Shown here: positions 3,066 through 31,321 of the stretch, piece after piece
Layout: each line of letters begins with the position of its first letter
Numbering within the stretch: position 1 is the stretch's first letter
Source: Gammaproteobacteria bacterium
Lineage (GTDB): Bacteria; Pseudomonadota; Gammaproteobacteria; JBFIID01
Direction: 5' to 3'
Assembly (NCBI GenBank): GCA_041601415.1
Contig: JBFIID010000001.1
Location: 1-36,245, forward strand
Length of the DNA: 36,245 nucleotides
The notes under the pieces: generated by a model
What the model was told of the DNA's origin: nothing
What the model saw: only the letters and a program-made list of their open reading frames with translations
Database searches by the model: none
Translations under genes and position numbers: made by a program

Positions 3066-3083
3066 CGAGCAGTCACAGATTTA

Positions 3084-3713: not shown

Positions 3714-3720
3714 GTCACTC

Positions 3721-15634: not shown

Positions 15635-16015
15635 ATGGAAATGAACAGACAACTCAGTAAACTTCTCGCGGCGGCAATACTGTCACCCATCCTGTTATTT
15701 GCCGCTCCCGCGCAGGTACTGGCGGAAATCTCCCTGTACTACAACTCTGGTGGAGGCCTTAATAAGTATTACAGGCAACACACGCCCTATCGGAACTCAC
15801 ACAAAGCCTACACCTATTCAAAACCTTATTATGGCTATGGGTATTATAATCAACCCCGCTACGGGTATTACGCATCACGTCCGCACCTGCAGCGTAAGTA
15901 TGACGACCACCGCCAGCATAAATACGACCGCCACCGCAACCATCACAGGCATGAGCGTCAACATCGAAACCGCAATGATCAGTATCGCAAAAAATTTCGC
16001 CACTACCGTGATTGA
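15635..16015 (+). CDS. Secreted Tyr/His/Arg-rich low-complexity protein (hypothetical)
   Basis: Signal peptide (LSKLLAAAILSPILLFAAPAQVLA) followed by about 95 residues with no hydrophobic core (YYGYGYYNQPRYGYY...HRQHKYDRHRNHHRHERQHRNRN). The real start is probably the second ATG at 15641, with GGAGA 7 nt upstream. Confidence 0.55.
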   Translation: MEMNRQLSKLLAAAILSPILLFAAPAQVLAEISLYYNSGGGLNKYYRQHTPYRNSHKAYTYSKPYYGYGYYNQPRYGYYASRPHLQRKYDDHRQHKYDRHRNHHRHERQHRNRNDQYRKKFRHYRD

Positions 16016-16094
16016 TCCGGTGACTTGATGACGAACGTAGATCAGCTACTATGGGTGCATGACTGAACATCTACTCGACCTCAGGTAGAGCTCT

Positions 16095-16592
16095 ATGGAT
16101 AAGCAACGTCTGGAATTGTTACAGGGCATGCCCGTGTTTGGTGGCATTGATGAAAGTATTCTGCAGTCACTGGTTGATATGAGTGACACCGTAGAGGTAC
16201 CAGCAGGAAGCTTTTTCTTTCATGAGGGCGATGAAGAGCATTCCATGTATGTGCTGGAATCAGGCGAAGTCATTGTGCTTAAAAACTGGGAGGGACAGCA
16301 GTATTTTCTATCGCGGCTATCGCGTGGGGACTGTCTCGGAGAAATGGCAATGATTGACCTCGACCGACGTGCTGGATCGGTACTCGCCGTAAAGGATTGC
16401 AGCGCTCTGGTCATCACCACCGACCACCTGCACGAAATCTATCAACGTGATGTCACCCAGTTCGCAATGATTCAGATGAATCTGAGCCGTGAATTATCCC
16501 GGCGATTACGCAAGGCCGATGAACGGATTTTTCTACCCCGTATCCGCGCGGTTAGCGTCGGTGGCGGTTATGAATTCATCTCCGAGGTCTAA
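16095..16592 (+). CDS. Stand-alone cyclic-nucleotide-binding (CNB) domain protein
   Basis: CNB beta-barrel with a phosphate-binding cassette (GDCLGEMAMIDLDRRAGSVLA). I see no HTH or other output domain in its 165 aa. Confidence 0.75.
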   Translation: MDKQRLELLQGMPVFGGIDESILQSLVDMSDTVEVPAGSFFFHEGDEEHSMYVLESGEVIVLKNWEGQQYFLSRLSRGDCLGEMAMIDLDRRAGSVLAVKDCSALVITTDHLHEIYQRDVTQFAMIQMNLSRELSRRLRKADERIFLPRIRAVSVGGGYEFISEV

Positions 16593-18451: not shown

Positions 18452-18640
18452 TTATTTATCTTTCAGCTTATATTCCAACAATTCGATGGCCATATTGGGC
18501 ACTTCTTTATGATGGTGTGACTCACGCGGTAATAACCACTCATCGACTTCACCTCGATCGACACTCAGGAGTTCTGCGACTTCACGCCTTTCCAGATGGT
18601 GATCAATCATCAAATCCATTAGCCGCTCACGATTATTCAT
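18452..18640 (-). CDS. Small protein (62 aa), possibly XRE/MqsA-like HTH
   Basis: An internal ATG at 18640 is preceded by a strong SD (AAGGGGAG, 7-nt spacing). It lies 13 nt downstream of the bolA stop. The sequence REVAELLSVDRGEVDEWLLP...PNMAIELLEYKL resembles short HTH proteins. The longer track ORF (to 18769) would overlap bolA. Confidence 0.5.
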   Translation of the reverse strand: MNNRERLMDLMIDHHLERREVAELLSVDRGEVDEWLLPRESHHHKEVPNMAIELLEYKLKDK

Positions 18641-18653
18641 AGCTACTCCCCTT

Positions 18654-18974
18654 TTATTTCTCTGGACTACTGCCACCCATACAGGCAGGTGAAGTGGTAG
18701 CACCGGCCTGCTTACCCTGCCATTCCTGCTGCGTAAACGTGTGCAGGGCGAGTGCGTGAATACCACCACTCATCTGTGAAGCCAGCAATTTGTAAATCGT
18801 TTGATGGCGCTTTACCAGACTCATACCCTGAAAATCATCGGACACAACCACAAGCTTAAAATGACTCTCTGAGCCTGGCGGTACATTATGCTGATGGCTC
18901 TCATTCTCGACCTCCAGATGTGAGATGTTAATGGACGCTTTAATTGTGTTCTGGATCGTTTCCTGAATGCTCAT
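18654..18974 (-). CDS. bolA: BolA-family protein (stress morphogene / Fe-S associated regulator)
   Basis: Near-collinear with E. coli BolA as I recall it: HLEVENESHQHNVPPGSESHFKLVVVSDDFQG...KRHQTIYKLL...IHALALHTFTQQEW...SPAC. Confidence 0.88.
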   Translation of the reverse strand: MSIQETIQNTIKASINISHLEVENESHQHNVPPGSESHFKLVVVSDDFQGMSLVKRHQTIYKLLASQMSGGIHALALHTFTQQEWQGKQAGATTSPACMGGSSPEK

Positions 18975-18980
18975 GGGTTA

Positions 18981-21497
18981 TCAGTTGTCACTCTCTCTAA
19001 AAGAAGCAAGGTCATCAAATAATGACTGTTCGTTCTGTTTACTTTTTTGCATCGCCTGCTCCGCACGCTTTGCGATTCGCTGCATTTGTTCCAGCATCCG
19101 AATATTTTCCTCTCGCTGGTTGGTAGAGTTTTCGAATTTCTCCTGATCTTGCGTCCATAACTCTATATCGTCTTCTATCATCTTTCGTAATTCGGCGGCA
19201 GTGTCTTCCGTACGTTTCATCTCCTGTGTATTGATGATCTGTGCATTATTTGCCGCCTTTTCTGCGAGTTGCGCAGATATCAGTTGCTCACGCGCCTGTT
19301 CAGCCATGGCTTCAACAGCGTTGATCTCATCCTGTAGCTTGGCCTGTTCAATGTTATCAGTTTCCTCTTCTGCGCGTTGTAACTGATTCAACCTTTCTAC
19401 TTCATTCTCAGCCTTCAGTCTTGCTGCTTCCGCCTCTTCACGTGCCTGAAGCGTGAGTTTTAACTCTTCCCGAATCCGTCGAGCCTCCTCCTCCAGCGTC
19501 TGCTTCTCCTGTCTCAGCTTTTCCTCTCCCAGTTCACGCGACTGATGATGTGAGGTTTTGAGTTCACTGATAATCTGTTCAGCTTCTTCTGTGGCAGCGC
19601 GCCTGGCGACTTCAGCTGCGACACGTGCTCGTTGTGCCTGATGAAGTTGCTGCGTTGTTCTGGCAAATTCACTTTCCAGTTTCTTTCTCTCCGTACGAAT
19701 TCTTTCCTCGGCCTCCATGCGCAGGCGCTGCTCCATCTGTTCCTGTTCCTCTGCCTGTTTCTTTAACTGTAATTCTGCCTGCTGCTTGAGTCGCTGGACC
19801 TCAGCCAACTGTGTGCGATTCGCGACACTCTGCTGCTCCAGTAGACGATGTTTGTTTTCCATCTCTACGGCAGCCTGTTCTTTCATTTTCTGTACACGTT
19901 GTAGTTCTTCCGTATTCCTGACGAAAACCTCTTCAAGCCGGGCTTTTTCTTCACGCATTCTTCGCTCTGATTCGGCCTGTAGCTGTTGAATTCTCTGCTC
20001 TTCCTGCAGACGCGTTTGTTCTACTTCTTTCTCAGCCTGTTCCTTCGCCGTGCTGATTTCCTGCTTCATTCGCTGCGCTTCCTGCAGTAGCTGATTGACA
20101 CGTTCAGCCTCTGCATTCATTTTTTCACGTTCCAGACGCAGTTTTTCCTCCAGCTCTTCCTCCATCTGACGACGCGCCGCCTCGACGACACTCCTGAGGT
20201 TTTCGGCCTCCTGCATCTGCAAATCTGCTTTCGCCAGGTCCGCCTTCAAACTGGCCGCTCTGACGCCAACATCCAGTGCAGACCTGTCATCCTCTTCCTG
20301 ACTCTGTTCGCCTGTCTCAGGATCAGCTGAAGCAGACTCCTGTTTCTGAGCGGGTAATTTTTCCTGTTGGTAATTAATTTCGGTAATGGATTCACTACTG
20401 TCAGGTTCATCGTCGACAGCATCTGCAAGCACCTGTGTATCTACACTGGCCGCAAAGGGCGTATTCATAATGCCCGATTCCAGATAACTCACATCAAGTC
20501 CCATCTTGCTCAGAAGATAGGCTGCAACCGAGGCACGACTGCTCACCTCTGAATAGATAATGTATTTTGTGTCTGGCGTGAGTTCACTGACCCGCTGGCG
20601 TAATTCTTTGAGGGGTATATTGATACTGCCAGGGATACTGCAGGCGGCGTGCTCATCCTGAAAGCGAATATCCAGCCAGACCCCGCCCGCTTCAACCAGG
20701 CTTATACCCTCTTCATAGCTCACCGAATTGAGCACCGGTTTTTTAATGAGTTCCGCGAAATCATCCTTGGTCAGTCGCATTACGGATCCCTCCGTTAACA
20801 TAACAACAGAGGCATTTCGCCGGGCACCTGAGACGAGTGCTTCTTCTCCGAAACTCTCCCCGGCGCGCAATTCAGCGAGCTGCACATCCTTTCCATCATC
20901 GGTGCTGCGCAATACCATGCAGCGCCCCTGCTGAATGATGTAATAATAATCTCCGGGTTCGCCCTGGGTAATTACCTTATCACCCGGCTTATAAGTCACC
21001 TCTTCCATGAGGCTGAAGATGCGCTGGATATTCGCGGCGGGAATACGCGAGAATAATTCCGACTCAAGCATTGTGCTCATCCAGTCGGCCTCATCATCTT
21101 CATCAGTTATTGTTATACCGGATGTGTCCTGAACATCTTCTGCATCGAGAGCAAGAAGCCGGTTCAATAAATCCTTGTCAAAACGGATCAGGATTGATTC
21201 ATGTGTGCATCTCGCCGACATCTGCCTCGGCTGTAATTGTGCCAGCGCATTACGCGCACCATCAGTGTCCTCCAGAACTTTTTTCACCAGAGAACCATCG
21301 GCATCCATCTCGACCTGACCTTTGAGCAGATAGTAAGCGTAGTTGTCACGGTCACCCTGTTTGAAAACCAGCTTCCCTTTCGGGTATTTAAACAACCTTC
21401 CCTGTTTTACGAGTTGATCCTGATACTTTTGCGACAGGCCATTGATAGGAATGAGGTTTTTAATCCGGCTCAGCAATTCTTCCTGTTGATTATCCAT
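18981..21497 (-). CDS. CNB(degenerate)-CNB-rhodanese-like-long coiled-coil protein, paralog 1 (838 aa)
   Basis: aa 15-120: CNB-like barrel lacking the FGE/R[ST]A cassette. Acidic linker DEDDEADW. aa 140-255: canonical CNB (GESFGEEALVSGARRNASV). aa 260-345: rhodanese-like (VWLDIRFQDEH...INIPL) whose active-site loop reads YSEVSSRAS, with no Cys. aa 407-838 (nt 18984-20279): uninterrupted E/Q/R/K/A-rich sequence typical of a coiled coil. Confidence 0.8.
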   Translation of the reverse strand: MDNQQEELLSRIKNLIPINGLSQKYQDQLVKQGRLFKYPKGKLVFKQGDRDNYAYYLLKGQVEMDADGSLVKKVLEDTDGARNALAQLQPRQMSARCTHESILIRFDKDLLNRLLALDAEDVQDTSGITITDEDDEADWMSTMLESELFSRIPAANIQRIFSLMEEVTYKPGDKVITQGEPGDYYYIIQQGRCMVLRSTDDGKDVQLAELRAGESFGEEALVSGARRNASVVMLTEGSVMRLTKDDFAELIKKPVLNSVSYEEGISLVEAGGVWLDIRFQDEHAACSIPGSINIPLKELRQRVSELTPDTKYIIYSEVSSRASVAAYLLSKMGLDVSYLESGIMNTPFAASVDTQVLADAVDDEPDSSESITEINYQQEKLPAQKQESASADPETGEQSQEEDDRSALDVGVRAASLKADLAKADLQMQEAENLRSVVEAARRQMEEELEEKLRLEREKMNAEAERVNQLLQEAQRMKQEISTAKEQAEKEVEQTRLQEEQRIQQLQAESERRMREEKARLEEVFVRNTEELQRVQKMKEQAAVEMENKHRLLEQQSVANRTQLAEVQRLKQQAELQLKKQAEEQEQMEQRLRMEAEERIRTERKKLESEFARTTQQLHQAQRARVAAEVARRAATEEAEQIISELKTSHHQSRELGEEKLRQEKQTLEEEARRIREELKLTLQAREEAEAARLKAENEVERLNQLQRAEEETDNIEQAKLQDEINAVEAMAEQAREQLISAQLAEKAANNAQIINTQEMKRTEDTAAELRKMIEDDIELWTQDQEKFENSTNQREENIRMLEQMQRIAKRAEQAMQKSKQNEQSLFDDLASFRESDN

Positions 21498-21658
21498 GCC
21501 ATGTCTCAGTAGTTTCGGTTATACGTTTAGCAGGAGTTTAGCATTGAAAAGCAGAGGATCGTGCCCTGAATGAGGAGATATTCAGGTCATTTTAACGAAT
21601 TGGAAGTAGCGGTGAGGTAAACAACAAACGGAATAAATACGAGGTTAATACCGGTTTA

Positions 21659-24253
21659 TCAATCGTCTTCCAGATCAAATTGCATAGAGAGTTCATTAAT
21701 CAGTTGAAGATCGTGCTGCTTGACGTCTTTACTGGCCTGTTCTGCTCTGGCCAGAATACGTTGCATTTCCTCACGTTGACGTTGCTCCAGACTACGCTGC
21801 TCATCACTATTGGCGTGGAGGGTCTGTTCGGTGATCCATTCCTGCAGGTCTGCTTCCAGTTGCTGACGCAGACCTTCCTCAGCCTCCTGCTGTTGATCCA
21901 GCTTAAGCCGATTATTCTCCTGGGCTGATTCTGCATCGGCATGTACTCGGCGTGCACTACGCAACTGATCGGATGCCTCGTGCAAACGTTCCTCGGTACT
22001 AGCAATGTCCTTTCCAATCTGTTGCTTTATACTATCTCCGGTGGCCTGCTTTTCAAGTAACCGTTTGGTGGCCTGTAAACGTTCCAGATCCTGTTCGGCA
22101 CGCTGCACCGCAAGTCCTGCATCTCGACTCGCGGTGCGCGAGACTAATAACATCTGTTGAATCCGGCTGGCTTCTACTTCAAGTTCTTTACGCTGTTCCT
22201 GCAGGCGTTGCTCCTGCTCCTTCATTGCCGCCTCATGTTCACGCCTGTATTCTTCGACAATTGCCTGCGCTTCACGGTTGGCGGCAATGCGTGTTTCCTC
22301 TGCGGTCTGTTTATCCTTTTGTGCCTGCTCAAGTAACTGACTGTTGTTCGCAAACTCCTGCTCAAGCCTGCGACGTTCAGCCAGCACCTCTGCTCGCATT
22401 TTCCGTTGTAGTGCTTCTTCTTTCCTGATCCTTTCCAACTGTTGTTGTTCGAGCTGTTTTTCAGCGGCTTTCTGGGCTGCTTGCATCACCTCTTTCATGC
22501 GTTGCACTTCACTCAACTGCTGACGATTTTCTTCAACCGTCCTGGACATTTCTCTACGTTCTTCAATCAGTCGGGCCTCTGCCTCCTGTTTAAGCTGTTT
22601 GATGTGTTCCAGTTCCTGAGTATTCCTGGCCGCGATCTGCTGCAATTTCTCCCGCTCAACTTCGAGGTTACGTTCCGCCTGTGTTTCAATTTCACGGATA
22701 CGTTGCTCAACCTTTACATGTGCCTCATTCGACTGTTGATCGGCGATCTGCTTGGCCTTCGCGATCTCCTGTTTAATCTGCTCTGCCTCATCAAGCATGG
22801 CCTTGGCACGCAGATTCTGATGTTCGATTTTCTCACGTTCGAGACGGAGCTTTTCCTCCATATCCCGTTCAATCTTTTCCCGTGCGAGTTCGAGCTCATG
22901 CTTCATTTGCACCGCATCGGAAAGAGATTCATTAATGCGCTGTTCCTGCTCCTTAAGCTTCAACTCCTGCTCACGCATTTGTGCCTCAGCACGCTGCTTC
23001 GCTCTTGCACCTTCAAGCTCGGCCTGTTTTTCCAGTCTTGCGGCCTCCTGCAACCTGATATTTGCGCGCGACAATTCACTATCCAGGGCCGCTGCACGCA
23101 CATCGGCAAGCACAGTCGCTCCACGATCCGGGGCCAAATTAGCCGGTTCTACAGAAGGCCTGGCAGTTTCTGTCACAGGCGTAGGGCTGATCGAGTTAAG
23201 ACCCGTCTCAAGAAAATACACGTCATAACCGAGATTAATCAGTATGAATGCCGCCACAGCAGCGAGACTGCCGTCGTCACAACAGGCGATATATGTCGAA
23301 TTTTCGTCAAGCCTTCTATGTTGAGCCCGAACCAACGGGAGGGGTAAGTTCAGGCTGTTTTCCAGAGACTTCTCGGCATGAGCCTGGGTAGAACGAACAT
23401 CTAGCCACACAGCACCCTCAGATACTCGTACGCGCGCCGTGTCGTTATTAACACCCTTCAAAATCGGCTTCAGCAGTAATTCGGCAAAGTGTTCCCGGTT
23501 GAGCCGCATCAACTCGCCATCTGAATCCATCGTCACAGAGGCGCTACGAATGGCGTTTGCAATGAGAGCCTCCTCACCAAAACAGTCTCCGGTATCGAGT
23601 TGCGCCAGTACGATGTCTTTCATGCCCACCGGAGATCGACGTGTGACACGCGCCTTGCCACTCTTGATGATGTAGTAGTAATCGCCCGGTTCACCCTGAC
23701 AAATGACAATTTCTCCAGCTTTCACTGGAATCGATTCCATACGACTAAATACCATCTGTATATTTGCCGCGGAGATTCGGGAGAACAGGGGGGAATTGAG
23801 GAGAATACTCATCCAGTCATCGTCATCCTCCTCTTCAAGGTCATGCACTTCGAAGTCGGCCTCATGAAGATTCCTTACCTCATCAAGCAAGCTCTCAAGC
23901 AATGTCCGTGAAGTACGGAACAGGGTAACGTCACTCACTGCTTTTGCGGTCATCTGACGTGGACGTAACTGTGACAGGCGGTATCTGGCCTCGTCACTAC
24001 CACCTTCAACCGTTTTCATCATCTGTCCATCACACTCAAGCTGCAACTTACCTTCCAGCAGATAAAACACGTGATCGTCTTTATCTCCCTGCCGGAATAT
24101 TGTTTGTCCTGCTGGGTAAGGTATAAGCTCGGACTGCTTAACGAGTTTTTTCTGTAACTCCAGGGGGAGGGAATTCAGGGGGTCAAGATCACGGATCACT
24201 TCTGGCATCAGGGTGACCAGGCCGGGATCGGAATGTTTTTTCGCTTGTATCAT
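21659..24253 (-). CDS. CNB(degenerate)-CNB-rhodanese-like-long coiled-coil protein, paralog 2 (864 aa)
   Basis: Same domain order as paralog 1: degenerate CNB, EEEDDDDW linker, canonical CNB (GDCFGEEALIANAIRSASV), then a rhodanese-like domain with loop IACCDDGSLA in which Cys is retained. aa 383-864 (nt 21662-23107) are E/Q/R/K/A-rich coiled coil. No obvious SD precedes the ATG at 24253. Confidence 0.8.
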   Translation of the reverse strand: MIQAKKHSDPGLVTLMPEVIRDLDPLNSLPLELQKKLVKQSELIPYPAGQTIFRQGDKDDHVFYLLEGKLQLECDGQMMKTVEGGSDEARYRLSQLRPRQMTAKAVSDVTLFRTSRTLLESLLDEVRNLHEADFEVHDLEEEDDDDWMSILLNSPLFSRISAANIQMVFSRMESIPVKAGEIVICQGEPGDYYYIIKSGKARVTRRSPVGMKDIVLAQLDTGDCFGEEALIANAIRSASVTMDSDGELMRLNREHFAELLLKPILKGVNNDTARVRVSEGAVWLDVRSTQAHAEKSLENSLNLPLPLVRAQHRRLDENSTYIACCDDGSLAAVAAFILINLGYDVYFLETGLNSISPTPVTETARPSVEPANLAPDRGATVLADVRAAALDSELSRANIRLQEAARLEKQAELEGARAKQRAEAQMREQELKLKEQEQRINESLSDAVQMKHELELAREKIERDMEEKLRLEREKIEHQNLRAKAMLDEAEQIKQEIAKAKQIADQQSNEAHVKVEQRIREIETQAERNLEVEREKLQQIAARNTQELEHIKQLKQEAEARLIEERREMSRTVEENRQQLSEVQRMKEVMQAAQKAAEKQLEQQQLERIRKEEALQRKMRAEVLAERRRLEQEFANNSQLLEQAQKDKQTAEETRIAANREAQAIVEEYRREHEAAMKEQEQRLQEQRKELEVEASRIQQMLLVSRTASRDAGLAVQRAEQDLERLQATKRLLEKQATGDSIKQQIGKDIASTEERLHEASDQLRSARRVHADAESAQENNRLKLDQQQEAEEGLRQQLEADLQEWITEQTLHANSDEQRSLEQRQREEMQRILARAEQASKDVKQHDLQLINELSMQFDLEDD

Positions 24254-24506: not shown

Positions 24507-24716
24507 ATGACAGATTTCGAAACAGAAACAGCACTCAGAACTCGCCTGCAGGAACTTGAAATAGAGCATCGGGATCTGGATGACGTGATTGAAAACATGA
24601 TTCAGAATCTTTACGTTGATCAGCTACTTATGCGTCGATTAAAGAAGCGGAAACTGCAAATCAAGGATCAGATTATCAGACTACGTAGTGAGTTAATACC
24701 CGATATTGATGCATAG
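24507..24716 (+). CDS. DUF465 (YdcH-like) small coiled-coil protein
   Basis: 69 aa with the family hallmark LQELEIEHRDLDDVI...RRLKKRKLQIKDQIIRL. Confidence 0.7.
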   Translation: MTDFETETALRTRLQELEIEHRDLDDVIENMIQNLYVDQLLMRRLKKRKLQIKDQIIRLRSELIPDIDA

Positions 24717-24940: not shown

Positions 24941-25201
24941 ATGCATTTCAACGAACTGAACCAGGTTTCATTCCGTGAAAAACAGTTGTTAAACGACATT
25001 TTTGCCTGTGAGCAAACTCTGGGCAGAAAAGAAGAAGAATTAATGGAAGACCTGGCCTACTATCAGGGCAGGTTGATGGCAGCTAAACAGTCCCCAACTC
25101 AAACCGAGTTATACCAGGAACACATTCATGCAATTCAGGCCCTGCTGGCTGAAATCTACCTGGATGCGGAAGTCGCTACTGAGGAATTCTGCTACGCCTG
25201 A
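24941..25201 (+). CDS. Hypothetical helical protein (86 aa)
   Basis: ORF with an AGGGGA SD 7 nt upstream, downstream of the sigma-54-like promoter, followed by a 9-bp hairpin. I recognise no motif. Confidence 0.55.
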   Translation: MHFNELNQVSFREKQLLNDIFACEQTLGRKEEELMEDLAYYQGRLMAAKQSPTQTELYQEHIHAIQALLAEIYLDAEVATEEFCYA

Positions 25202-25383: not shown

Positions 25384-26226
25384 ATGGATTACCATATCAG
25401 CAAAAAAATCTTGATACTTGATGATCAGCCTGAGATCACCAGTATGCTTGAGATCCAGATAGGTCAGACGTTTGACTGTGTCTTTGTTAACGATCCCTCA
25501 GAAGCCCTGTCCCTGCTGCTTGCAGAAGGGCCGTTTGCTGTAATCATGTCTGATTACCAGATGCCGGGAATGGACGGCGTTACCTTCCTGCAGGAGGCCA
25601 ATGCAAGAAGTCCAGACAGCATTCCAATAATGCTGACCTCTCATATCGATATAGACATTGCGGTTGCGGCCTTGCATGAAGGCAATATTTTCCGGTTTCT
25701 GCGCAAGCCCTGGGAACGGGATGTCATCGTCAAGTCCATCACTGATGCAATGGAACTCTATCGGATAAAAGTCTCGGAACGACTACTGAAAAGAGATCTT
25801 GAACAGGCCAATGAGGAATTGTCGGCTAAGGTTCAGCAACTGATGGAAAGCAATAGCCTGCTGCAACACTGGGTGGAATTCAGCCCGGCAGTAGTGTACT
25901 CACTCGAAGAGCATGATGACGGTTATAAAACCAGTTATGTGAGCAAAAACTTTGAAGATTTGTGTGGCTATGATCGTACCGAATTGTTATCCAATCCGAA
26001 GTTCTGGCTGGATCTGATCCATCCCGATGACCGTTCCAGCGCGATAAAAACAATCATGAACGCTCTGAGCTCGGATCAGGATCCGGGCGTCTACTCGTAT
26101 CGTATCAAACACCGAAACGGTGACTACATAACAATCCAGGATGCCTCGAGAATCGCCTATAACCCGGTCAATAATCGCAAGGAACTGATTGGTGCATGGA
26201 CCAGAATTAATACCACAGCCAACTAG
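25384..26226 (+). CDS. Response regulator: receiver (REC) domain, coiled-coil linker, PAS domain; no enzymatic or DNA-binding output
   Basis: REC with an intact acidic pocket (LILDDQ), phospho-acceptor Asp (VIMSDYQMPGMDG), Thr/Ser (MLTS) and Lys (FLRKPW). A helical linker follows (LKRDLEQANEELSAKVQQLMESN), then a PAS fold (SPAVVYSLEE...YVSKNFEDLCGYDRTELL...IHPDD...YRIKHRNGDY). Confidence 0.8.
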   Translation: MDYHISKKILILDDQPEITSMLEIQIGQTFDCVFVNDPSEALSLLLAEGPFAVIMSDYQMPGMDGVTFLQEANARSPDSIPIMLTSHIDIDIAVAALHEGNIFRFLRKPWERDVIVKSITDAMELYRIKVSERLLKRDLEQANEELSAKVQQLMESNSLLQHWVEFSPAVVYSLEEHDDGYKTSYVSKNFEDLCGYDRTELLSNPKFWLDLIHPDDRSSAIKTIMNALSSDQDPGVYSYRIKHRNGDYITIQDASRIAYNPVNNRKELIGAWTRINTTAN

Positions 26227-26252
26227 CTGGTTTTCTGTTCTTATCTGAAATC

Positions 26253-27533
26253 TCAAAGGCGTTTCGAGAGTTCCTGGCTGGTCTCAGAGAGCCGTTTGAT
26301 GAGTAATTTCTGAAACAGTTTATTGGTGCGCATCTGCACCTGAAGTGACGCCCATTCGGGCAGTGGCGTATCAATTTTAAGCAGAATCACATGATCCAGC
26401 GCCCTTACAGTCGCTGTTCGTTTACCACCGTCCAGATAGGCCATTTCCCCAAAGCAATCACCCGCAGATAAATTTGCAATGATCTTGCGGTTTCTTTCGA
26501 CGGTGACCTGTCCGGAAATGATGATATAAAAACCATCCTGATCATCACCCTCTTCAATCAACGCGCTGTTCCTTGGAAAGGATACCCACTCAGCAACGTC
26601 AACCACCTCTTCTAGCTCCAGTTCAGAGAACTCTTTAAAAAATACCAGCCCCTTGAGGAGTTCCAGTTTCTGCTGATCATTCATCAGACGGACGGGATCC
26701 TGCAGGTCTTCCAGTACCAGCCGCAGATCATCTGCCATTTGCGTACCGTTCTGATAACGATCAGGTAGTTTCTTTTGCAGTGCCCGTTCTACAACCTGAT
26801 TGAGTGATTGCGGTAATTCAGGGCGGAGCTCAATAACCGGCTGTTGTGCCTTATTGATTACATTGTTGATCAGTCCGGAGATACCCTTGGCCGCAAACGG
26901 CGTAGACCCGACCAGCATTTCGTACAACACAACACCAAGAGAAAACAGATCCGTCTGATGGGTGAGTTGTCCATCTGCAGCCTGCTCTGGCGACATGTAC
27001 ATGGGTGAACCATACCAACCGAGAATCTGTGTCTTATCGGCCATGGTACGCTGCGCGATACCGAAATCCCCTATTTTGACCTGTCCCTGCTCCGTCAGCA
27101 TGATATTGGCGGGTTTAATATCCCGGTGGGTAATACCGCGCTCATGTGCGTAGTTCAACGCATCGGCACAATTCATAATGTAGCGAACCACCGTTTCTAC
27201 CGGAAGTAAAACATCTTTTTTGCAGAAGGATCTCAGGGTGTCAGCATGTTCAACAAATTCCATGGAGATATAGGGCTGACCGTCGGCGTCTCCCGCATCA
27301 TAGACTTTCAGAATATTCGGATGATCCAGTGAGCCTGCGGCCTGTGCCTCGTTGAAAAAGAGTTTGCGCGCTTTATGCACCTCTTCTTCTTCAACTTCTT
27401 CGATGGTGCTAACCTTAATCGCAACCTGACGATCAACGAACGGGTCATAGCCGATATAGACCATTCCCATGGCCCCCTTACCGGCGACCCCTGTGATCTC
27501 ATACTTCCCGATTTTTTCCGGCAGGGATTCCAT
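26253..27533 (-). CDS. Hanks-type Ser/Thr protein kinase fused to a C-terminal cyclic-nucleotide-binding domain
   Basis: Kinase motifs: GKGAMGMVY, VAIKV, HRDIKPANIML, IGDFGIA, MSPEQ. The C-terminal CNB has a canonical cassette GDCFGEMAYLDGGKRTATVRA. The start overlaps the stop of the upstream gene by 1 nt (TAATG at 27533). Confidence 0.85.
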   Translation of the reverse strand: MESLPEKIGKYEITGVAGKGAMGMVYIGYDPFVDRQVAIKVSTIEEVEEEEVHKARKLFFNEAQAAGSLDHPNILKVYDAGDADGQPYISMEFVEHADTLRSFCKKDVLLPVETVVRYIMNCADALNYAHERGITHRDIKPANIMLTEQGQVKIGDFGIAQRTMADKTQILGWYGSPMYMSPEQAADGQLTHQTDLFSLGVVLYEMLVGSTPFAAKGISGLINNVINKAQQPVIELRPELPQSLNQVVERALQKKLPDRYQNGTQMADDLRLVLEDLQDPVRLMNDQQKLELLKGLVFFKEFSELELEEVVDVAEWVSFPRNSALIEEGDDQDGFYIIISGQVTVERNRKIIANLSAGDCFGEMAYLDGGKRTATVRALDHVILLKIDTPLPEWASLQVQMRTNKLFQKLLIKRLSETSQELSKRL

Positions 27534-30500
27534 TATGCAACCTCTTCCATCACTACGGATTCGGCGACAGCCAGACCCTGTATATAATCCACGCCTATGT
27601 CCTTCAACGACTCTATGGTCTTCTCATTATTGACCTGATCAGCAATGGTCTTTTTACCCATAAGGTGACCAATCTCATTCATTGATCTAACCAATGCGAG
27701 GTCATTAGGGTTTTTATGCATGCCACGAACGAACAAACCGTCCATCTTGATGAAATCAATTGGCAGAGTATTCAGATAGCCCTGCGCTGTGTCACATTGC
27801 CCAAACCCACCCATACTAAACTTGCATCCGAATTCTTTCATGGTACGAATAAAGCGTTCCGCCTCCTGTTGATTATCAATCACAACTGACTGTTTAATCT
27901 CGAAACAGACTTTCCCCGCAGGCACCCTGGACTCGGTCAACTGCGCAATAATATATTCAATTAACTTATCATCACACAATGAAAGTTCACTGATGTGAAT
28001 CGCACACACCGCCACATCTTTTAGTGTCTTTCTATGGGCAAACATCCATTGCAGCGATCCACGGATCAGCATTCTATCAATCTCGGGACTCTGTTTATTC
28101 AGATGTGCGGCCTGTAGAAAATCCTCCTGTGGGATGAGGATGCCATCCTCGTCTTCAATCCCCAGTATGATCTCATATTGTTCTTTGTCCTTGCTGTCCG
28201 AATGCAGGGGAACTATGCGTTGATAACGCAGCTTCAGAGATTCAGATTTGACGACTTTCTCGACCAGTGCGCGCCAGTCCTTTTTAACCTCTTCGAGCCC
28301 GGTATCTGCCTCATCCTGTGTATGGACATATATCTGGTTTTTTCCCTGTTTCTTCGCGTTGGCCGCCGCACCTGTCACTTCATCAAGCAATTTTTCGGCC
28401 GAGATATCCAGCTCCTGCAGTGACAAAAGACCAATCGATGCACCCACTGTGAACATCTGTTCCTGCCATTTAAAACGGAAGGCCTTAATGTCCTCCAGCA
28501 AAGACTGGAGCTGCTGTTCTGCAGCCTGCTTGTCAACGTCCTTCATCAGTACTGAAAAGCGATCTCCCCCCAGACAACCCGGCAATGGTTGTGGAAAATG
28601 CTCTCGCATAAACTTAGCCAGGGACTTTAACAGGTCATCGGCAGCGTCCTGGCCAAACTTTCTGTTCATTGCTGCTACGCAGTCAAAATTAACTTCTGCC
28701 AGGATGGAGTCTACTCCTGTCTGTTCAACGGCAAGTTGAACTTGTTTGATTTTTTCCATCATATGGCGGCGATTTGGTAGCCCTGTAATCGCTTCATTAT
28801 TGGCCTGCTGGCCTATTTCGTCATGCATCTTATACAGGGTGGTTCGCATCGCACGGTCAACCGGCGGCAGGGTAGGCTTTTCGAGCAGTACGGCAGTACC
28901 ACGGCGTAGCTGCATCGCCAGTTCCTGTAAGGTCATATTCAGGGCTTTATTACCGTTAGCGTCAACAAACACATAGGGGTTGTAGTTGTCACCAATCCAG
29001 GCCAGCGTTACACAATCATCATTTTCAGATGCTTTTTTGATCCCTAACAAGTCGCCGATTTGCATTTTCATCGCACGTTCCAGCCACAGACGCCAGTCAG
29101 CGGGTTGTCGATCTGCATTCGCTAATGGATCAATGTCTGCCGATTTGCCACCACGACGTTTGCGTAACAGTTCCTGCTGCTGCTGATACTGTTTCACTAC
29201 CTGATCAACATTGGACTCATAACGTTCCTGTTGCTGGTGAGCCAGGTGACTGATTTCCGGCATCATCTCGGCAAAGACATTGGCGTCCTGATCATAGTTC
29301 TGATTAATACGCTCCACGATGGTGTCGAGCTGTTCGATGGTCTCGCTATCACCGGCAACTTTAAGATCCGCTATCTGATTCAGTACGGCTCTTGCAGGAT
29401 GCGCTTCATCACTCAGAAAAGCGCCATCCTTGATCGCGAGTTTCTGGATAGTTCCCTGCATCTGGGTAAGACGTGACTTGATCCCTGAACCGAGAAGGTG
29501 ATCAACATCGAATGAACTAACGAATTTGTCAGCCATATTCAGTGCATTTGCATGCGCCTGATTAATTTCAATCGGTGTATCGTCACCCACACGACTTTTA
29601 AGAATTCGTTTAATTCTTGACATGTTATCTTCATTGCCCAGTTCATTCTTCCAGCCTGAGCGATTTTCCCTTTGCAGGACAGACAGGGCCTCCAGAATAT
29701 CTTCACTGGCATATTGCTGGTAGGAAGCGGGCCCCGTATTTTGGCCTGCGACTTCAGAACCCGTGCTCATAGCAGGCACCGGGTTCGTCCCGAACTGTCC
29801 ACCGCCGCTCGAAGACAATGGTGGTGCAACTGAGGGGGCAGCACCTCCCATTGCACCTGCACCTACAGGGCTGCCGGAAGGCATTGAATGCGGTGTCATA
29901 CCCGGTGCATGACCGGCAACCGGTGTGGGCACAACCGCAGAGAAATTACCCTGTTTCAGATTCATCAGATTCTGCATTGCCTGCATGGTCTGACCCGCAG
30001 GTGTGCGGGGAGCCAATTGATTGTCTACCTGACCCGTTACACCTGGACCTGATGGCATCGCAGGCTGCGGGTGAGCTGTTGCAGGAGCTGTCCCTGTCGC
30101 CAACGGTGTCTGGCCGGGTACAGCAGCAGCGCCAGTCGTCGCAGCTGTCTGCCCTGACGTATTTCCCTGAGGACTCACAGCACTACCAGTGGGGGGAATG
30201 CTGTCTGCCGTATTACTCAATTCCTGGGTGTTTGACAACGGCTCAACCACCTCATCAATCTGGCGAGTCGGTTTTGACGTAGGTTTTTTCCAGCCTTCTG
30301 TCTCTGGCTTCTTCTCGGGGAGGCTATAGTATTTGCGTAAAGACTCGTCCAGATCACGGAAGAAAAACTCCAGCCGAGGCACCACGGACTCTTCATAGAC
30401 ACGAAATAAAAGTTCGTTGGTATCGTAACTCAGGTCTATCTGATCCTTGGCGTTCGAAAAGGCAGAGGTGATGGCCGAAACCCCTAGCGGGTTAGTGCCT

Positions 30501-31321
30501 CGTTCCATGGGAAGATTAAACAACTGGCTCAGACGAATTTCTATCTTGTCTAACAATTCGCTATAGCGTGGTTCTGCACGCGAGACAATTTCGGAAGAGG
30601 TCAGAAGATCCTCGAAATCGTCTTTTTCGATCAGTTTCAGTTCACCAGACTGATTAATATTAGAAAAGTCCGGTGCCTGGCCCGATTGCCCCGTCTGTTC
30701 ATACGTTTCCTGTATTTCGTTGAGAAAATAGCTGCTGATGTCAGCCTGTTTCTTTTTTAGCAGGTTCATACATCCGAAATAATCACTCTGCTGCACATTA
30801 TTTTTTGCATCTCGAGCGGCAATAAATAATTGCTCATCGGCCTGTTCAAAGAAGGTCTTTATCAGTGATTTAAGATGCTTTGCAGACAGGAACCAGGTCT
30901 CGTCGAGCACCTTGGCATTTCTTTCCTGTGGCAAGTCAGAACGCCCCAGAGTTGCCTCTGCTTTTTGCTGCTCTGCCAGCAAGGTAAGCGCCTTGAGTGC
31001 ATCTTCCGCAGGGTTTATAAATGCAGCGCCGATCCCTGTGTTGAATACACGCGCGATACTGCCCTGCATTTTGAAAGCGCGCCTCGCCTCATTCAGTTCG
31101 ACATTAAAACTGATGGTTATCTTGTCATCACGCGACAAAAAGCTGATTGCTTCTGCATTGGCCTGAGGGTTTACCAGCGCCAGAAACATTCCCCCGGGGC
31201 AAAAATCCCTTATTTTGCACTGAATATTGGCTGATTTTGCGGTATTCAGAGACGCATCGAGGGATAGAGACTGCCGTACAAATGCACGTTGGTTATTACC
31301 GGAAGAATTATCAGCAGACAT
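27533..31321 (-). CDS. PilZ - DUF1631 - degenerate GGDEF - degenerate EAL multidomain protein (1262 aa)
   Basis: The N-terminal PilZ has RxxxR (RAFVR) and a D-x-C-x-x-G variant of DxSxxG (DFCPGG). DUF1631 hallmarks are present (ADEQLFIAARDAKNNVQQSDYFGCMNLLKKK near the start, LAWIGDNYNPYVFVDANGNK near the end). A P/G/A/T/S-rich insert of about 170 aa lies within it (aa 365-535). The GGDEF domain reads GGDRF (nt 28556-28570) and also lacks the upstream Asp, Lys and His residues. The EAL domain reads YEIILG, with N to H (AIHIS), DDFG to GGFG and EGVE to DQVN. Confidence 0.8.
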   Translation of the reverse strand: MSADNSSGNNQRAFVRQSLSLDASLNTAKSANIQCKIRDFCPGGMFLALVNPQANAEAISFLSRDDKITISFNVELNEARRAFKMQGSIARVFNTGIGAAFINPAEDALKALTLLAEQQKAEATLGRSDLPQERNAKVLDETWFLSAKHLKSLIKTFFEQADEQLFIAARDAKNNVQQSDYFGCMNLLKKKQADISSYFLNEIQETYEQTGQSGQAPDFSNINQSGELKLIEKDDFEDLLTSSEIVSRAEPRYSELLDKIEIRLSQLFNLPMERGTNPLGVSAITSAFSNAKDQIDLSYDTNELLFRVYEESVVPRLEFFFRDLDESLRKYYSLPEKKPETEGWKKPTSKPTRQIDEVVEPLSNTQELSNTADSIPPTGSAVSPQGNTSGQTAATTGAAAVPGQTPLATGTAPATAHPQPAMPSGPGVTGQVDNQLAPRTPAGQTMQAMQNLMNLKQGNFSAVVPTPVAGHAPGMTPHSMPSGSPVGAGAMGGAAPSVAPPLSSSGGGQFGTNPVPAMSTGSEVAGQNTGPASYQQYASEDILEALSVLQRENRSGWKNELGNEDNMSRIKRILKSRVGDDTPIEINQAHANALNMADKFVSSFDVDHLLGSGIKSRLTQMQGTIQKLAIKDGAFLSDEAHPARAVLNQIADLKVAGDSETIEQLDTIVERINQNYDQDANVFAEMMPEISHLAHQQQERYESNVDQVVKQYQQQQELLRKRRGGKSADIDPLANADRQPADWRLWLERAMKMQIGDLLGIKKASENDDCVTLAWIGDNYNPYVFVDANGNKALNMTLQELAMQLRRGTAVLLEKPTLPPVDRAMRTTLYKMHDEIGQQANNEAITGLPNRRHMMEKIKQVQLAVEQTGVDSILAEVNFDCVAAMNRKFGQDAADDLLKSLAKFMREHFPQPLPGCLGGDRFSVLMKDVDKQAAEQQLQSLLEDIKAFRFKWQEQMFTVGASIGLLSLQELDISAEKLLDEVTGAAANAKKQGKNQIYVHTQDEADTGLEEVKKDWRALVEKVVKSESLKLRYQRIVPLHSDSKDKEQYEIILGIEDEDGILIPQEDFLQAAHLNKQSPEIDRMLIRGSLQWMFAHRKTLKDVAVCAIHISELSLCDDKLIEYIIAQLTESRVPAGKVCFEIKQSVVIDNQQEAERFIRTMKEFGCKFSMGGFGQCDTAQGYLNTLPIDFIKMDGLFVRGMHKNPNDLALVRSMNEIGHLMGKKTIADQVNNEKTIESLKDIGVDYIQGLAVAESVVMEEVA

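What the first reader, a model, noticed from the sequence alone, without database searches (positions are those of the whole stretch)
18981..24253. Tandem paralogous giant proteins with the architecture CNB-CNB-rhodanese-long coiled coil
Two adjacent co-directional ORFs (838 and 864 aa) share the same unusual domain order. First comes a degenerate CNB domain whose cassette reads DGARNALAQLQPRQMSARC in one and SDEARYRLSQLRPRQMTAKA in the other, with no FGE motif. Next is an acidic linker ending in W (DEDDEADW and EEEDDDDW). Then comes a canonical CNB domain (FGEEAL...RRNASV and FGEEAL...IRSASV), then a rhodanese-like domain. Finally there are about 430-480 residues of uninterrupted E/Q/R/K/A-rich sequence, which would be a rod of tens of nm if it forms a coiled coil. 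Neither protein has a transmembrane segment, a DNA-binding domain or a catalytic output domain. I know of no characterised family that couples cyclic-nucleotide sensing and a rhodanese module to a long coiled coil. A cNMP-gated filament, scaffold or tether is a plausible but unproven function. A heteromeric coiled coil formed by the two paralogs is also possible.
Basis: partly seen in the sequence, partly recalled or inferred. Interest (0 to 1): 0.82.

Follow-up and report, generated by a model that had tools for sequence, protein, structure and literature searches.

The report
Cyclic-nucleotide sensor on a helical rod
Two neighbouring genes encode paralogous proteins that join a cyclic-nucleotide sensor resembling the regulatory subunit of protein kinase A, plus a rhodanese domain, to a roughly 45-nm helical rod ending in a domain found only in this family; the family occurs in hundreds of gammaproteobacterial genomes and nobody has studied it.

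Summary
Two minus-strand ORFs, A (18981-21497, 838 aa) and B (21659-24253, 864 aa), are 36% identical end to end. Both read modified CNB, acidic linker ending in DW, canonical CNB, rhodanese, disordered linker, then 430-490 proline-free helical residues.

They are not unique. The pattern scan confirmed 570 related stretches in species-representative genomes, almost all Gammaproteobacteria, and none carries more than a generic name. No paper on the architecture was found.

The sensor core is the constant part. Tails range from none (350 aa) to about 1,560 residues, and some relatives add PP2C or a transmembrane segment plus an FGE-sulfatase domain.

The tail is not generic coiled coil. It is as constrained as the folded core. 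A profile of its last 257 residues finds only 222 of 1.84 billion representative proteins, nearly all with the match at the C-terminus.

Paired paralogs from separate deep clades recur (18 of 80 loci), often with a small DUF465 gene.

Both window copies have damaged rhodanese active-site loops.

The best reading is a non-enzymatic cNMP receptor on a rod-like adaptor. Filament formation and an A/B heterodimer remain untested.

The parts
18981..21497 (-). Gene A, 838 aa. It belongs to the A-like clade of the CNB-CNB-rhodanese-helical-tail family.
   Evidence: ORF; Pfam; 72% identical ortholog P0002/L081; tree.
21132..21455 (-). A: first CNB domain (about residues 15-122) with a modified phosphate-binding cassette, ALAQLQPRQMSARC. 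The Pro-Arg is kept and FGE is lost.
   Evidence: Pfam second stretch; AF2 beta-barrel with pLDDT above 90; Pro 93/96 and Arg 92/96.
21081..21131 (-). A: low-confidence acidic linker (residues 123-139) ending in the near-invariant Asp-Trp.
   Evidence: pLDDT below 50 for residues 123-135; Trp 95/96 and Asp 89/96.
20733..21080 (-). A: canonical CNB domain (residues 140-255), cassette GESFGEEALVSGARRNASV.
   Evidence: Pfam PF00027, best stretch 167-252; F-G-E-E 96/96 and Arg 95/96; Foldseek matches to the tandem CNB of PKA-R and PKG, E about 1e-19.
20457..20732 (-). A: rhodanese domain (residues 256-347) directly after the CNB-B C-helix. The active-site loop reads S-E-V-S-S-R, with the catalytic Cys replaced by Ser.
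   Evidence: Pfam PF00581, E = 1.1e-12; loop census; same change in the ortholog.
20310..20456 (-). A: disordered, fast-evolving acidic linker (residues 348-396).
   Evidence: pLDDT 34-50; 35% identity and pN 0.40 against the ortholog.
19743..20309 (-). A: proximal helical stalk (residues 397-585). This is the part that varies in length across the family.
   Evidence: Helix in both AF2 models; length variation lies upstream of the mid2 block; conserved hydrophobic columns spaced mainly 4, 7 and 3 apart.
18984..19742 (-). A: family-specific distal helical module (residues 586-838). It holds the blocks ER.KLE.EFAR...AEEAE.II.E.K, (D/E)-L-x-x-W, and RI(K)..A......LLDDLA, with robust helix breaks near residues 711-714 and about 790.
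   Evidence: Conserved blocks; fixed distance of 185-190 aa from the mid2 block to the C-terminus; highest tail pLDDT; only 222 hits in 1.84e9 representatives.
21659..24253 (-). Gene B, 864 aa, a paralog of A from a different deep clade.
   Evidence: tree; ortholog of 1,030 aa in L081.
23864..24190 (-). B: first CNB domain with modified cassette RLSQLRPRQMTAKA.
23462..23812 (-). B: canonical CNB domain (GDCFGEEALIANAIRSASV), preceded by the acidic linker ending in DW at nt 23813-23863.
   Evidence: Pfam best stretch 177-260; alignment.
23183..23461 (-). B: rhodanese domain with a weaker Pfam score. The loop reads C-D-D-G-S-L: Cys is kept and the loop Arg is replaced by Leu.
   Evidence: Pfam E = 5.3e-8. 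The precomputed Pfam list for the L081 ortholog shows no rhodanese call.
21662..23119 (-). B: helical tail (residues 379-864), with the mid2 block at residues 622-673, 191 aa from the C-terminus.
24507..24716 (+). DUF465 small protein (69 aa), transcribed divergently from B. It is a recurrent neighbour of the family.
   Evidence: Pfam PF04325, E = 2.4e-13; present in 21 of 83 loci, usually 10-60 bp upstream of an A-like copy.
21498..21658 (-). B-A intergenic region of 161 nt, with a weak hairpin and a block shared with the sister genome (TTCAATGnTAAACTC).
18654..18974 (-). BolA-family gene starting 6 bp downstream of A and probably co-transcribed with it. The association is specific to this lineage.
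   Evidence: Pfam PF01722; same order in L081; absent from the other 82 loci.

Best explanation
A and B are paralogous cytoplasmic receptors for a cyclic nucleotide, most likely cAMP or cGMP. They belong to an uncharacterised gammaproteobacterial family.

The sensor head of about 350 aa has three parts: a modified first CNB domain, a canonical second CNB domain, and a rhodanese domain joined directly to the C-helix of the second CNB.

Inferred mechanism. Ligand binds the canonical cassette of CNB-B (FGE plus Arg). This moves its C-terminal hinge and lid helix, as in other CNB proteins. Because the rhodanese domain begins where that helix ends, its orientation relative to the two CNB domains would change.

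The head hangs from a flexible acidic linker on a continuous helix of about 300 residues (roughly 45 nm). The helix ends in a conserved, family-specific module of about 250 residues, in which two further helices probably fold back on the rod.

The proteins have no enzymatic or DNA-binding output, and in this genome both rhodanese loops are damaged. The output is therefore most likely a ligand-dependent protein-protein interaction made by the head. The tail would supply oligomerisation and attachment through its distal module, making the protein a cNMP-switched adaptor or scaffold.

Shown: domain composition, conservation of binding residues, helicity, selective constraint, family-specific tail end, and recurrent pairing of paralogs. 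Inferred: ligand identity, the conformational relay, oligomeric state, and scaffold function.
For: - Domains: CNB x2 plus rhodanese. The head matches the tandem CNB-A/B of PKA-R and PKG, E about 1e-19, and is modelled at pLDDT above 90.
- Binding residues: in CNB-B, F-G-E-E is invariant in 96 of 96 cores and Arg is present in 95 of 96.
- Coupling: there is no linker between the CNB-B C-helix (244-255) and the rhodanese domain (from 256).
- Tail structure: proline-free and helical. Conserved hydrophobic columns are spaced mainly 4, 7 and 3 apart, with a local period of 3.5-3.65. Helix-stabilising charge pairs are +5.7 SD above shuffles.
- Constraint: the tail is as constrained as the core (pN 0.155 versus 0.148, with saturated pS), while the linker is free (pN 0.40).
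- Specificity: the distal module sits at a fixed distance from the C-terminus whatever the total length. Its profile finds only 222 of 1.84e9 representative proteins.
- No known output: no output domain or transmembrane segment is present.
- Modularity: the sensor core is reused with other outputs, including none, PP2C, and transmembrane plus FGE-sulfatase. This marks it as a regulatory module.
- Rhodanese loops: both copies are altered, and the change is inherited in the sister genome.
Against: - No ligand-binding data exist. A CNB fold does not prove cNMP binding: the CNB-fold insertions of the Family 2B encapsulin do not bind cAMP (PMC11550324).
- The residue after the cassette Arg is Asn (R-N-A-T), so specificity cannot be read from the sequence.
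- The hydrophobic seam is sparse, at 13% of columns, and only 40% of residues are charged. Neither a classic dimeric coiled coil nor a classic single alpha-helix is established.
- AlphaFold2 monomer models have low pTM (0.34-0.39) and say nothing about oligomers.
- The covariation test for fold-back of the distal helices was inconclusive.
- No partner protein is identified. Synteny beyond the paralog and DUF465 is weak.
- In most of the family the rhodanese Cys is intact (87 of 96), so a purely non-catalytic reading may not hold for the family as a whole.
Confidence: 0.5

Rival explanations
1. The rhodanese domain is the output. The proteins would be cNMP-gated sulfurtransferases, persulfide carriers, or thiol or redox sensors, and the rod would only position them.
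For: Eighty-seven of 96 family cores keep the sulfurtransferase-type C-D-T-G-x-R loop. The family is concentrated in Chromatiales and Ectothiorhodospiraceae-type sulfur oxidisers and in tubeworm symbionts. The rhodanese domain is fused directly to the CNB-B lid helix.
Against: In this window A has Cys replaced by Ser and B has the loop Arg replaced by Leu. Both changes are inherited in the sister genome, yet both genes remain under strong purifying selection, so function persists without a canonical loop. The taxonomic bias may simply reflect phylogeny; Methylohalomonas is a methylotroph. No sulfur-metabolism genes are conserved nearby.
Confidence: 0.15
2. A and B form an obligate heterodimeric coiled coil, possibly with the small DUF465 protein as a third subunit.
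For: Two family copies from separate deep clades lie side by side in 18 of 80 loci, either divergent or co-directional. In the window the two tails align end to end. The mid2 block is present in both A-like and B-like partners. DUF465 lies directly upstream of A-like copies in many loci.
Against: Partner tails differ up to about two-fold in length (441 versus 990, 465 versus 956, 455 versus 264), so a full-length in-register pairing cannot be general. Many genomes have a single copy within the fetched locus. B carries a 43-residue insertion at the start of its tail. No multimer modelling was possible.
Confidence: 0.2
3. The tail assembles into filaments, making this a cytoskeleton-like coiled-coil-rich protein whose polymerisation is gated by cNMP.
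For: The helical rod is long, rod length varies within the family, and both ends of the tail are conserved.
Against: Pfam finds no intermediate-filament or other cytoskeletal family even at E <= 10. The hydrophobic seam is sparse and the net charge is about -22. The nearest structural matches are generic hairpins and none is significant. Nothing here tests assembly.
Confidence: 0.1
4. The head acts like a PKA regulatory subunit. It would bind and inhibit a separate enzyme, for example a Ser/Thr kinase or a PP2C phosphatase, and release it when cNMP binds.
For: The fold matches PKA-R. A Ser/Thr kinase with its own CNB domain lies 2 kb away and is syntenic in the sister genome. A homolog of it occurs in 7 of 80 loci. 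One relative fuses the same head to a PP2C domain.
Against: Only about 15 residues precede CNB-A, so there is no docking domain or pseudosubstrate. The neighbouring kinase already carries its own CNB sensor. The kinase is not conserved near the family.
Confidence: 0.12
5. The CNB domains bind a different small molecule, or none, so the protein is not a cNMP effector.
For: Encapsulin CNB-fold domains do not bind cAMP (PMC11550324). CNB-A lacks the Gly-Glu of FGE. The Asn after the cassette Arg is unusual. No cyclase is encoded in the window.
Against: In CNB-B every residue that contacts the ribose-phosphate in canonical sites is invariant across 96 cores (G, F-G-E, R). That is hard to explain without a phosphate-ribose ligand.
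Confidence: 0.12

Closest known systems
Regulatory subunits of cAMP-dependent protein kinase and the regulatory region of PKG (tandem CNB-A/CNB-B)
   Same: Two consecutive CNB domains with the same fold and order. These are the top 50 Foldseek matches, E about 1e-19 over about 260 aligned columns, and the top PDB sequence matches. The second site has a canonical FGE...R cassette.
   Different: There is no N-terminal dimerisation and docking domain and no inhibitor sequence. The first site lacks FGE. A rhodanese domain and a helical tail of about 440 residues follow. No catalytic-subunit partner is known.
Pseudomonas aeruginosa CbpA (PA4704; Endoh and Engel 2009, J Bacteriol 191:7193). Cited; the details below are recalled from memory because the paper is not held.
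   Same: As I recall the paper, CbpA has an N-terminal degenerate CNB domain and a C-terminal cAMP-binding CNB domain, is modelled as PKA-R-like, has no known enzymatic or DNA-binding output, and localises to the cell pole in a cAMP-dependent way.
   Different: To my knowledge no rhodanese domain or long helical tail is reported for CbpA.
Single-domain rhodaneses GlpE and PspE
   Same: The domain scores above the Pfam threshold, with weak NCBIfam matches to PspE and GlpE. Most family members have the six-residue C-x-x-G-x-R loop typical of sulfurtransferases.
   Different: Here the domain is embedded in a multidomain protein, and both window copies lack a complete active-site loop.
Bacterial coiled-coil-rich scaffold and polarity proteins (crescentin/FilP-type rods; PodJ/TipN-type anchors). 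This comparison is from general knowledge.
   Same: A long, charged helical rod of variable length. Sister clades add a transmembrane segment and a C-terminal FGE-sulfatase domain, giving an architecture like an anchored scaffold.
   Different: There is no sequence or profile similarity. None of those proteins carries a cNMP sensor head. Assembly and localisation are untested here.
Pycsar effectors (CNB domain fused to TIR or transmembrane effectors)
   Same: They share the CNB domain, giving PADLOC matches to PycTIR and to TIR effector models at E about 1e-9 to 1e-10.
   Different: The matches cover only the CNB part of those profiles. There is no TIR or transmembrane effector and no adjacent cyclase.

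Membership tests
Canonical ligand-binding CNB domain (Pfam PF00027) | Profile match above the curated threshold | tested here: met
   113.8 and 110.9 bits against a cut-off of 27.5, with two stretches in each protein.
Canonical ligand-binding CNB domain (Pfam PF00027) | Phosphate-binding cassette with the Gly-Glu of FGE and the Arg | tested here: met
   Met for the second CNB domain: F-G-E-E 96/96 and Arg 95/96 across the family, and present in both A and B. Not met for the first CNB domain, which keeps Pro-Arg but has lost Gly-Glu.
Canonical ligand-binding CNB domain (Pfam PF00027) | Demonstrated binding of cAMP or cGMP | not testable with these tools
   This needs ITC, thermal shift or cAMP-agarose binding on purified protein.
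PKA regulatory subunit | Tandem CNB-A/CNB-B fold | tested here: met
   Foldseek E = 5.7e-19 to 1e-15 against RI, RII, Bcy1 and PKG tandem domains.
PKA regulatory subunit | N-terminal dimerisation and docking domain plus an inhibitor or pseudosubstrate segment before CNB-A | tested here: not met
   The first CNB domain begins about 15 residues from the N-terminus, with helix 2-13 followed by the barrel.
PKA regulatory subunit | Partner catalytic subunit | not testable with these tools
   The only nearby kinase (26253-27533) has its own CNB domain. No interaction data exist.
Rhodanese sulfurtransferase (GlpE/PspE type) | Rhodanese fold (Pfam PF00581 above threshold) | tested here: met
   48.7 and 33.7 bits against a cut-off of 22.2.
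Rhodanese sulfurtransferase (GlpE/PspE type) | Catalytic Cys heading a six-residue loop that ends in Arg | tested here: not met
   A reads S-E-V-S-S-R, with no Cys. B reads C-D-D-G-S-L, with no Arg. The family norm is C-D-T-G-x-R in 87 of 96 cores.
CbpA-type cAMP-binding protein (P. aeruginosa PA4704) | Degenerate N-terminal CNB followed by a canonical C-terminal CNB | tested here: met
   The arrangement is seen here. That CbpA has this arrangement is recalled from memory of Endoh and Engel 2009.
CbpA-type cAMP-binding protein (P. aeruginosa PA4704) | Sequence homology to PA4704 beyond the generic CNB fold | not testable with these tools
Dimeric heptad coiled coil or coiled-coil-rich cytoskeletal proteins | Continuous a/d hydrophobic seam (about 2 of 7 positions) | tested here: inconclusive
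   Conserved hydrophobic columns are spaced mainly 4, 7 and 3 apart with a local period of 3.5-3.65, but they cover only 13% of columns and leave gaps of 17-24 residues.
Dimeric heptad coiled coil or coiled-coil-rich cytoskeletal proteins | Self-assembly into dimers or filaments | not testable with these tools
   Only monomer AlphaFold2 was available.
ER/K single alpha-helix | Very high charge content (most residues E, K or R) with i/i+4 salt-bridge patterning and almost no hydrophobic seam | tested here: not met
   The charged fraction is 0.40, about 21% of residues are hydrophobic, and a conserved seam is present. Salt-bridge patterning is nevertheless enriched at +5.7 SD.
Pycsar anti-phage system | A CNB effector carrying a TIR or transmembrane killing domain next to a pyrimidine cyclase | tested here: not met
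   PADLOC matches cover only the CNB part. No TIR domain, transmembrane segment or cyclase is present.

The most novel reading that the evidence does not exclude
A, B and the small DUF465 protein form a hetero-oligomeric, cNMP-switched rod of about 45 nm that acts as a bacterial counterpart of a PKA-R/AKAP-type scaffold. The conserved distal module would anchor the rod at a fixed cellular site. The sensor head would recruit or release signalling partners, such as the neighbouring CNB-kinase or c-di-GMP enzymes, according to cyclic-nucleotide level. This would define a new class of non-transcriptional cNMP effector that is widespread in sulfur-oxidising and related Gammaproteobacteria.
Probability: 0.15. 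Interest if true: 0.8.

Novelty: new variant of a known kind. Interest (0 to 1): 0.58.

Why it matters
Outside CRP-type transcription factors, very few bacterial cyclic-nucleotide effectors are understood. This family offers one that is widespread, with 570 confirmed stretches in species-representative genomes, and strongly conserved. It has no obvious enzymatic or DNA-binding output. Its PKA-R-like head is reused with several different outputs: none, a helical rod, PP2C, or a membrane anchor plus an FGE-sulfatase domain.

If the head is a true cNMP switch, the family would show how second-messenger signals in bacteria can be turned into changes in protein assembly or position, not transcription. 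It also gives a clean test case, because the tail-less, rod-bearing and enzyme-fused versions can be compared directly.

The tail end is a new domain restricted to this family, and no existing domain model describes it.

Tried and rejected
- Internal repeats: BLASTP self-comparison of the tails with composition correction gave no self-hits. Block HMMs later showed that the 512-540 and 598-625 segments cross-match, so a weak internal repeat exists but was not resolved.
- Whole-tail Fourier analysis of a single sequence: weak, with a peak at 3.6 within the range of shuffles. It was replaced by a column-wise analysis.
- Pfam on tails at E <= 10: nothing.
- PDB profile search with the tail alignment: only a Beclin-2 coiled coil at E = 0.048, treated as noise.
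- Foldseek on the tail model: no match below E = 0.09.
- Covariation (MI with APC, 130 sequences) to test fold-back of the distal helices: about 27% of the top pairs lie on the expected antiparallel diagonal, against 26% background. Inconclusive.
- Neighbourhood clustering for a conserved operon partner: no gene family occurs in more than 16 of 81 loci. BolA is specific to this lineage.
- Defence-system reading: rejected, because the PADLOC matches are CNB-only.
- Structured RNA in the window: none by Rfam.
- Terminator between B and A: only a weak 5-bp stem, and the number of terminator-like sites is not above shuffles.
- Reading the CbpA paper: not held.
- An idea that the invariant Trp139 corresponds to the Trp260 capping residue of PKA RI-alpha: dropped. 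A hand alignment against the RI-alpha sequence recalled from memory put Trp139 about 16 residues further upstream.
- Model coordinates are not exposed, so helix packing in the AlphaFold2 models could not be inspected directly.


Full report

Yes. Two co-directional ORFs lie on the minus strand: A at 18981-21497 (838 aa) and B at 21659-24253 (864 aa). BLASTP aligns them end to end at 36% identity, E = 4e-148.

Pfam finds two cNMP_binding stretches and one Rhodanese domain in each, all well above the curated thresholds. NCBIfam has no family-level model for them and gives only sub-threshold matches to CRP, Pat, PspE and GlpE through the individual domains.

The tails have no proline and only 2 and 5 glycines. 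E+Q+A+R+K make up about 62%, and the net charge is about -22.

Neither protein has a transmembrane segment. The maximum 19-residue hydropathy is 0.79 for A and 1.86 for B, the latter inside the rhodanese domain.

**2. Are these real, functional genes?**

Against the 72%-identical ortholog in GCA_025450675.1 (L081, same synteny), synonymous sites are saturated (pS 0.73-0.88). Non-synonymous divergence is low and equal in core and tail: for A, pN is 0.148 in the core and 0.155 in the tail; for B, dN/dS is 0.07 and 0.08.

Only the 50-residue linker between the rhodanese domain and the tail evolves freely (35% identity, pN 0.40). The tail sequence is therefore under the same constraint as the folded sensor domains, which is not what a mere spacer or disordered region would show.

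**3. The family.**

A protein search returned at least 541 homologs with the same Pfam content. Their only names are 'cyclic nucleotide-binding domain-containing protein' or 'CRP-like cAMP-binding protein'.

Some genomes contribute two. Nearly all are Gammaproteobacteria:
- Ectothiorhodospiraceae and Chromatiales
- Thiohalobacter, Thiogranum, Sedimenticola and Halofilum
- Granulosicoccaceae
- tubeworm endosymbionts
- the cultured Methylohalomonas lacus

Family proteins in the fetched loci range from 350 aa, which is the CNB-CNB-rhodanese core with no tail, to 1,905 aa. The sensor core is the constant unit.

A neighbour-joining tree of 96 cores resolves these groups:
- a tail-less clade
- a very long clade of 1,100-1,900 aa
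- an A-like clade with tails mostly 440-475 residues, containing window A
- a clade of longer-tailed partners (620-990 residues)
- a small clade containing window B

The very long clade has unrelated SMC-like coiled coils. Several of its members continue into a transmembrane segment and a C-terminal FGE-sulfatase domain. One relative, P0233, inserts a PP2C phosphatase domain after the rhodanese domain.

**4. Paralog pairs and neighbours.**

Eighteen of 80 loci carry two family genes side by side, either head to head or co-directional. The two members always fall in different deep clades. The duplication is therefore old and both copies have been kept together, which supports a joint or complementary function.

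Partner tails often differ greatly in length, for example 441 versus 990, 465 versus 956, and 455 versus 264 residues. A full-length, in-register heterodimeric coiled coil cannot be the general rule.

Otherwise synteny is weak, with no neighbouring gene family in more than 16 of 81 loci. The exception is a 65-70-aa DUF465 gene in 21 of 83 loci, typically 10-60 bp upstream of an A-like copy and co-directional with it. In the window it lies at 24507-24716 on the plus strand, divergent from B. DUF465 itself is uncharacterised.

BolA, which starts 6 bp downstream of A, is shared only with the sister genome.

The window is a signalling island that the sister genome conserves. It contains:
- a standalone CNB protein
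- a Ser/Thr kinase fused to CNB
- a DUF1631-GGDEF-EAL protein
- a GAF-GGDEF protein
- an RR-PAS protein

No nucleotide cyclase is encoded in the window.

**5. The sensor head.**

AlphaFold2 with a 61-sequence alignment models residues 1-355 at pLDDT above 90, apart from the acidic linker at 123-135. Foldseek matches the first ~260 residues to the tandem CNB-A/B of PKA regulatory subunits and PKG, E about 1e-19. PDB sequence searches agree.

Across 96 cores the second CNB cassette is essentially invariant: G, F-G-E-E in 96 of 96, Arg in 95 of 96, followed by N-A-T/S-V. These are the residues that hold the ribose-phosphate in canonical sites (established knowledge of CNB domains), so a cyclic-nucleotide ligand is likely.

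The first CNB has lost the Gly-Glu, but its cassette length is preserved. Its Pro-Arg (93 and 92 of 96) and the surrounding LAQLQPRQ.SA.A are among the most conserved motifs in the protein. It is a specialised site, not a decaying one. What it binds is unknown.

The acidic linker ends in a near-invariant Asp-Trp, with Trp in 95 of 96.

The rhodanese domain starts immediately after the CNB-B C-helix (244-255). In CNB proteins this is the hinge and lid element that moves when ligand binds, so a direct mechanical link is plausible. This step is inference.

**6. The rhodanese loop.**

Eighty-seven of 96 cores have C-D-T-G-x-R, the six-residue loop of sulfurtransferase-type rhodaneses. Window A has S-E-V-S-S-R and window B has C-D-D-G-S-L. 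The same changes are present in the orthologs of the sister genome, so they are inherited and are not sequencing errors.

In this lineage canonical sulfur transfer is unlikely, yet the genes remain constrained. For these two proteins, that points to a structural or interaction role for the domain.

**7. The tail.**

The full-length model gives helices 397-448, 453-559, 564-710, 715-788 and 793-837. In the tail-only model the first two breaks vanish, leaving one helix of about 306 residues (A 405-710). At 0.15 nm per residue that is about 45 nm. Two further helices follow (A 715-790 and 792-835), and confidence is highest in the distal third.

The lengths match a fold-back arrangement, since 74 + 45 residues is close to the last 120 residues of the long helix. 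I could not confirm this: model coordinates are not exposed and a covariation test was inconclusive. The closest Foldseek geometries are helical hairpins (ROP, FliJ/YscO, IpaB, SMC arm, Vipp1), but none is significant, with a best E-value of 0.095.

Column-wise analysis of 61 sequences shows 57 conserved hydrophobic columns, spaced mainly 4, 7 and 3 apart, with a local period of 3.5-3.65. This is heptad-like, but it covers only 13% of columns and leaves gaps of 17-24 residues.

Charges are arranged to stabilise a helix. Opposite-charge i/i+3,4 pairs are +5.7 SD above shuffles and like-charge pairs are -5.4 SD below, but only 40% of residues are charged.

The tail is thus a stable helical rod with features of both coiled coils and single alpha-helices. 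Its oligomeric state is open.

**8. The tail end is a specific domain.**

The alignment shows conserved blocks: ERRKLEAEFAR...AAEEAE.IIAEYK, (D/E)-L-x-E-W, and RIK..A......HD..LLDDLA.

The first block always lies 185-190 residues from the C-terminus, whether the protein is 790 or 1,362 aa long. Length changes are therefore confined to the proximal stalk.

A profile of the last 257 residues, scored against 1.84 billion representative proteins, finds only 222 hits at E <= 1e-3, of which 164 are at E <= 1e-10. The long hits are 750-1,000-aa proteins with the match at the extreme C-terminus.

Shorter hits fall into three kinds:
- gene fragments that start inside the rhodanese domain
- a few module-only proteins of about 270 aa, which may also be fragments
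- one variant, P0143, that joins only the first CNB domain to the tail

Pfam has no model for this region even at E <= 10, and PDB sequences match nothing. This is a new, family-restricted helical domain and not generic low-complexity coiled coil.

**9. Most likely mechanism.**

The evidence best fits a cytoplasmic cNMP receptor whose PKA-R-like head switches conformation when ligand binds CNB-B. The head sits on a long helical rod, and the conserved distal module mediates oligomerisation or attachment. In short, it would be a ligand-switched adaptor or scaffold.

What is shown and what is inferred are separated in the Best explanation section. The main caveat is that CNB folds do not always bind cNMP (encapsulin example, PMC11550324). 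Nothing here tests assembly or partners.

**10. Comparison with known systems and novelty.**

The head works like, and is structurally related to, PKA-R/PKG tandem CNB modules, but it lacks their docking and inhibitor elements. The closest bacterial analogue I know of is P. aeruginosa CbpA, which from memory has a degenerate plus a canonical CNB and shows cAMP-dependent polar localisation. Homology to it could not be tested. Literature searches found no work on this architecture or on DUF465 function.

All the component ideas are known: a CNB sensor, a rhodanese domain, and a helical rod. The combination, the family-specific distal domain and the conserved paralog pairing are uncharacterised. 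I therefore rate it a new variant of a known kind, of moderate to high interest.

Noticed in passing
window 15635-16592, 25384-32687: The pair sits in a second-messenger signalling island. It contains a standalone CNB protein (16095-16592, +), an RR-PAS protein (25384-26226, +), a Ser/Thr kinase fused to a CNB domain (26253-27533, -), a 1,262-aa DUF1631-GGDEF-EAL protein (27533-31321, -) and a GAF-GGDEF protein (31605-32687, +). The whole arrangement is syntenic in GCA_025450675.1.
   Followed up: partly
window 24941-25201 (+): An 86-aa ORF with no Pfam family lies between DUF465 and the RR-PAS gene. It is conserved in L081 (63% identity) and more weakly in L009, L003 and L016, where it lies next to family genes.
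   Followed up: partly
window 18452-18640 (-), within the listed ORF 18452-18769: A probable 62-aa small protein (MNNRERLMDLMIDHH...) lies just downstream of BolA. A 62-aa gene is called at the same position in the sister genome. The longer GTG-started ORF overlapping BolA is probably not real.
   Followed up: no
window 22442-23347 (+) and 19001-20000 / 22001-23000: A 301-aa Leu/Phe-rich ORF runs antisense to the tail of B. It looks like a shadow of the purine-rich Glu/Gln/Lys codons, not a gene. The same codon bias produces strong local skews in the two tail regions (AT skew about -0.4, GC skew about -0.17).
   Followed up: no
window 21498-21658: The B-A intergenic region contains a 7-8-bp hairpin (CCTGAAT...ATTCAGG). 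About 45-60 nt upstream of the A start there is a block shared with the sister genome (TTCAATGnTAAACTC), which may be an internal promoter or operator for A.
   Followed up: partly
L043 7944-12083, L058 7965-12752, L059 7971-11288; P0233: Sister clades fuse the same CNB-CNB-rhodanese head to unrelated long coiled coils, a transmembrane segment and a C-terminal FGE-sulfatase domain. P0233 also has a PP2C phosphatase domain after the rhodanese domain.
   Followed up: partly
L048, L051-L057, L062-L072 (tail-less clade): The 350-aa tail-less versions sit in a conserved housekeeping neighbourhood whose neighbours look, by eye, like rnhA, dnaQ, holB and a lytic transglycosylase. In 8 loci they lie next to a 537-aa protein that looks like GAF plus HD-GYP. 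These neighbour identities were judged from the sequences only and were not confirmed by Pfam.
   Followed up: no
P0143 (469 aa): This variant joins only the modified first CNB domain and the acidic linker directly to the tail and distal module, with no canonical CNB and no rhodanese domain. It may be a real minimal form or an assembly artefact.
   Followed up: no
window 2154-6692 (-) and 8108-8875 (+): A lipid-transport-type cluster (PqiA, a MlaD-domain protein, an ABC auxiliary lipoprotein and a LolA-like protein) and a ParA/MinD-like ATPase lie upstream. They appear unrelated to the finding.
   Followed up: no
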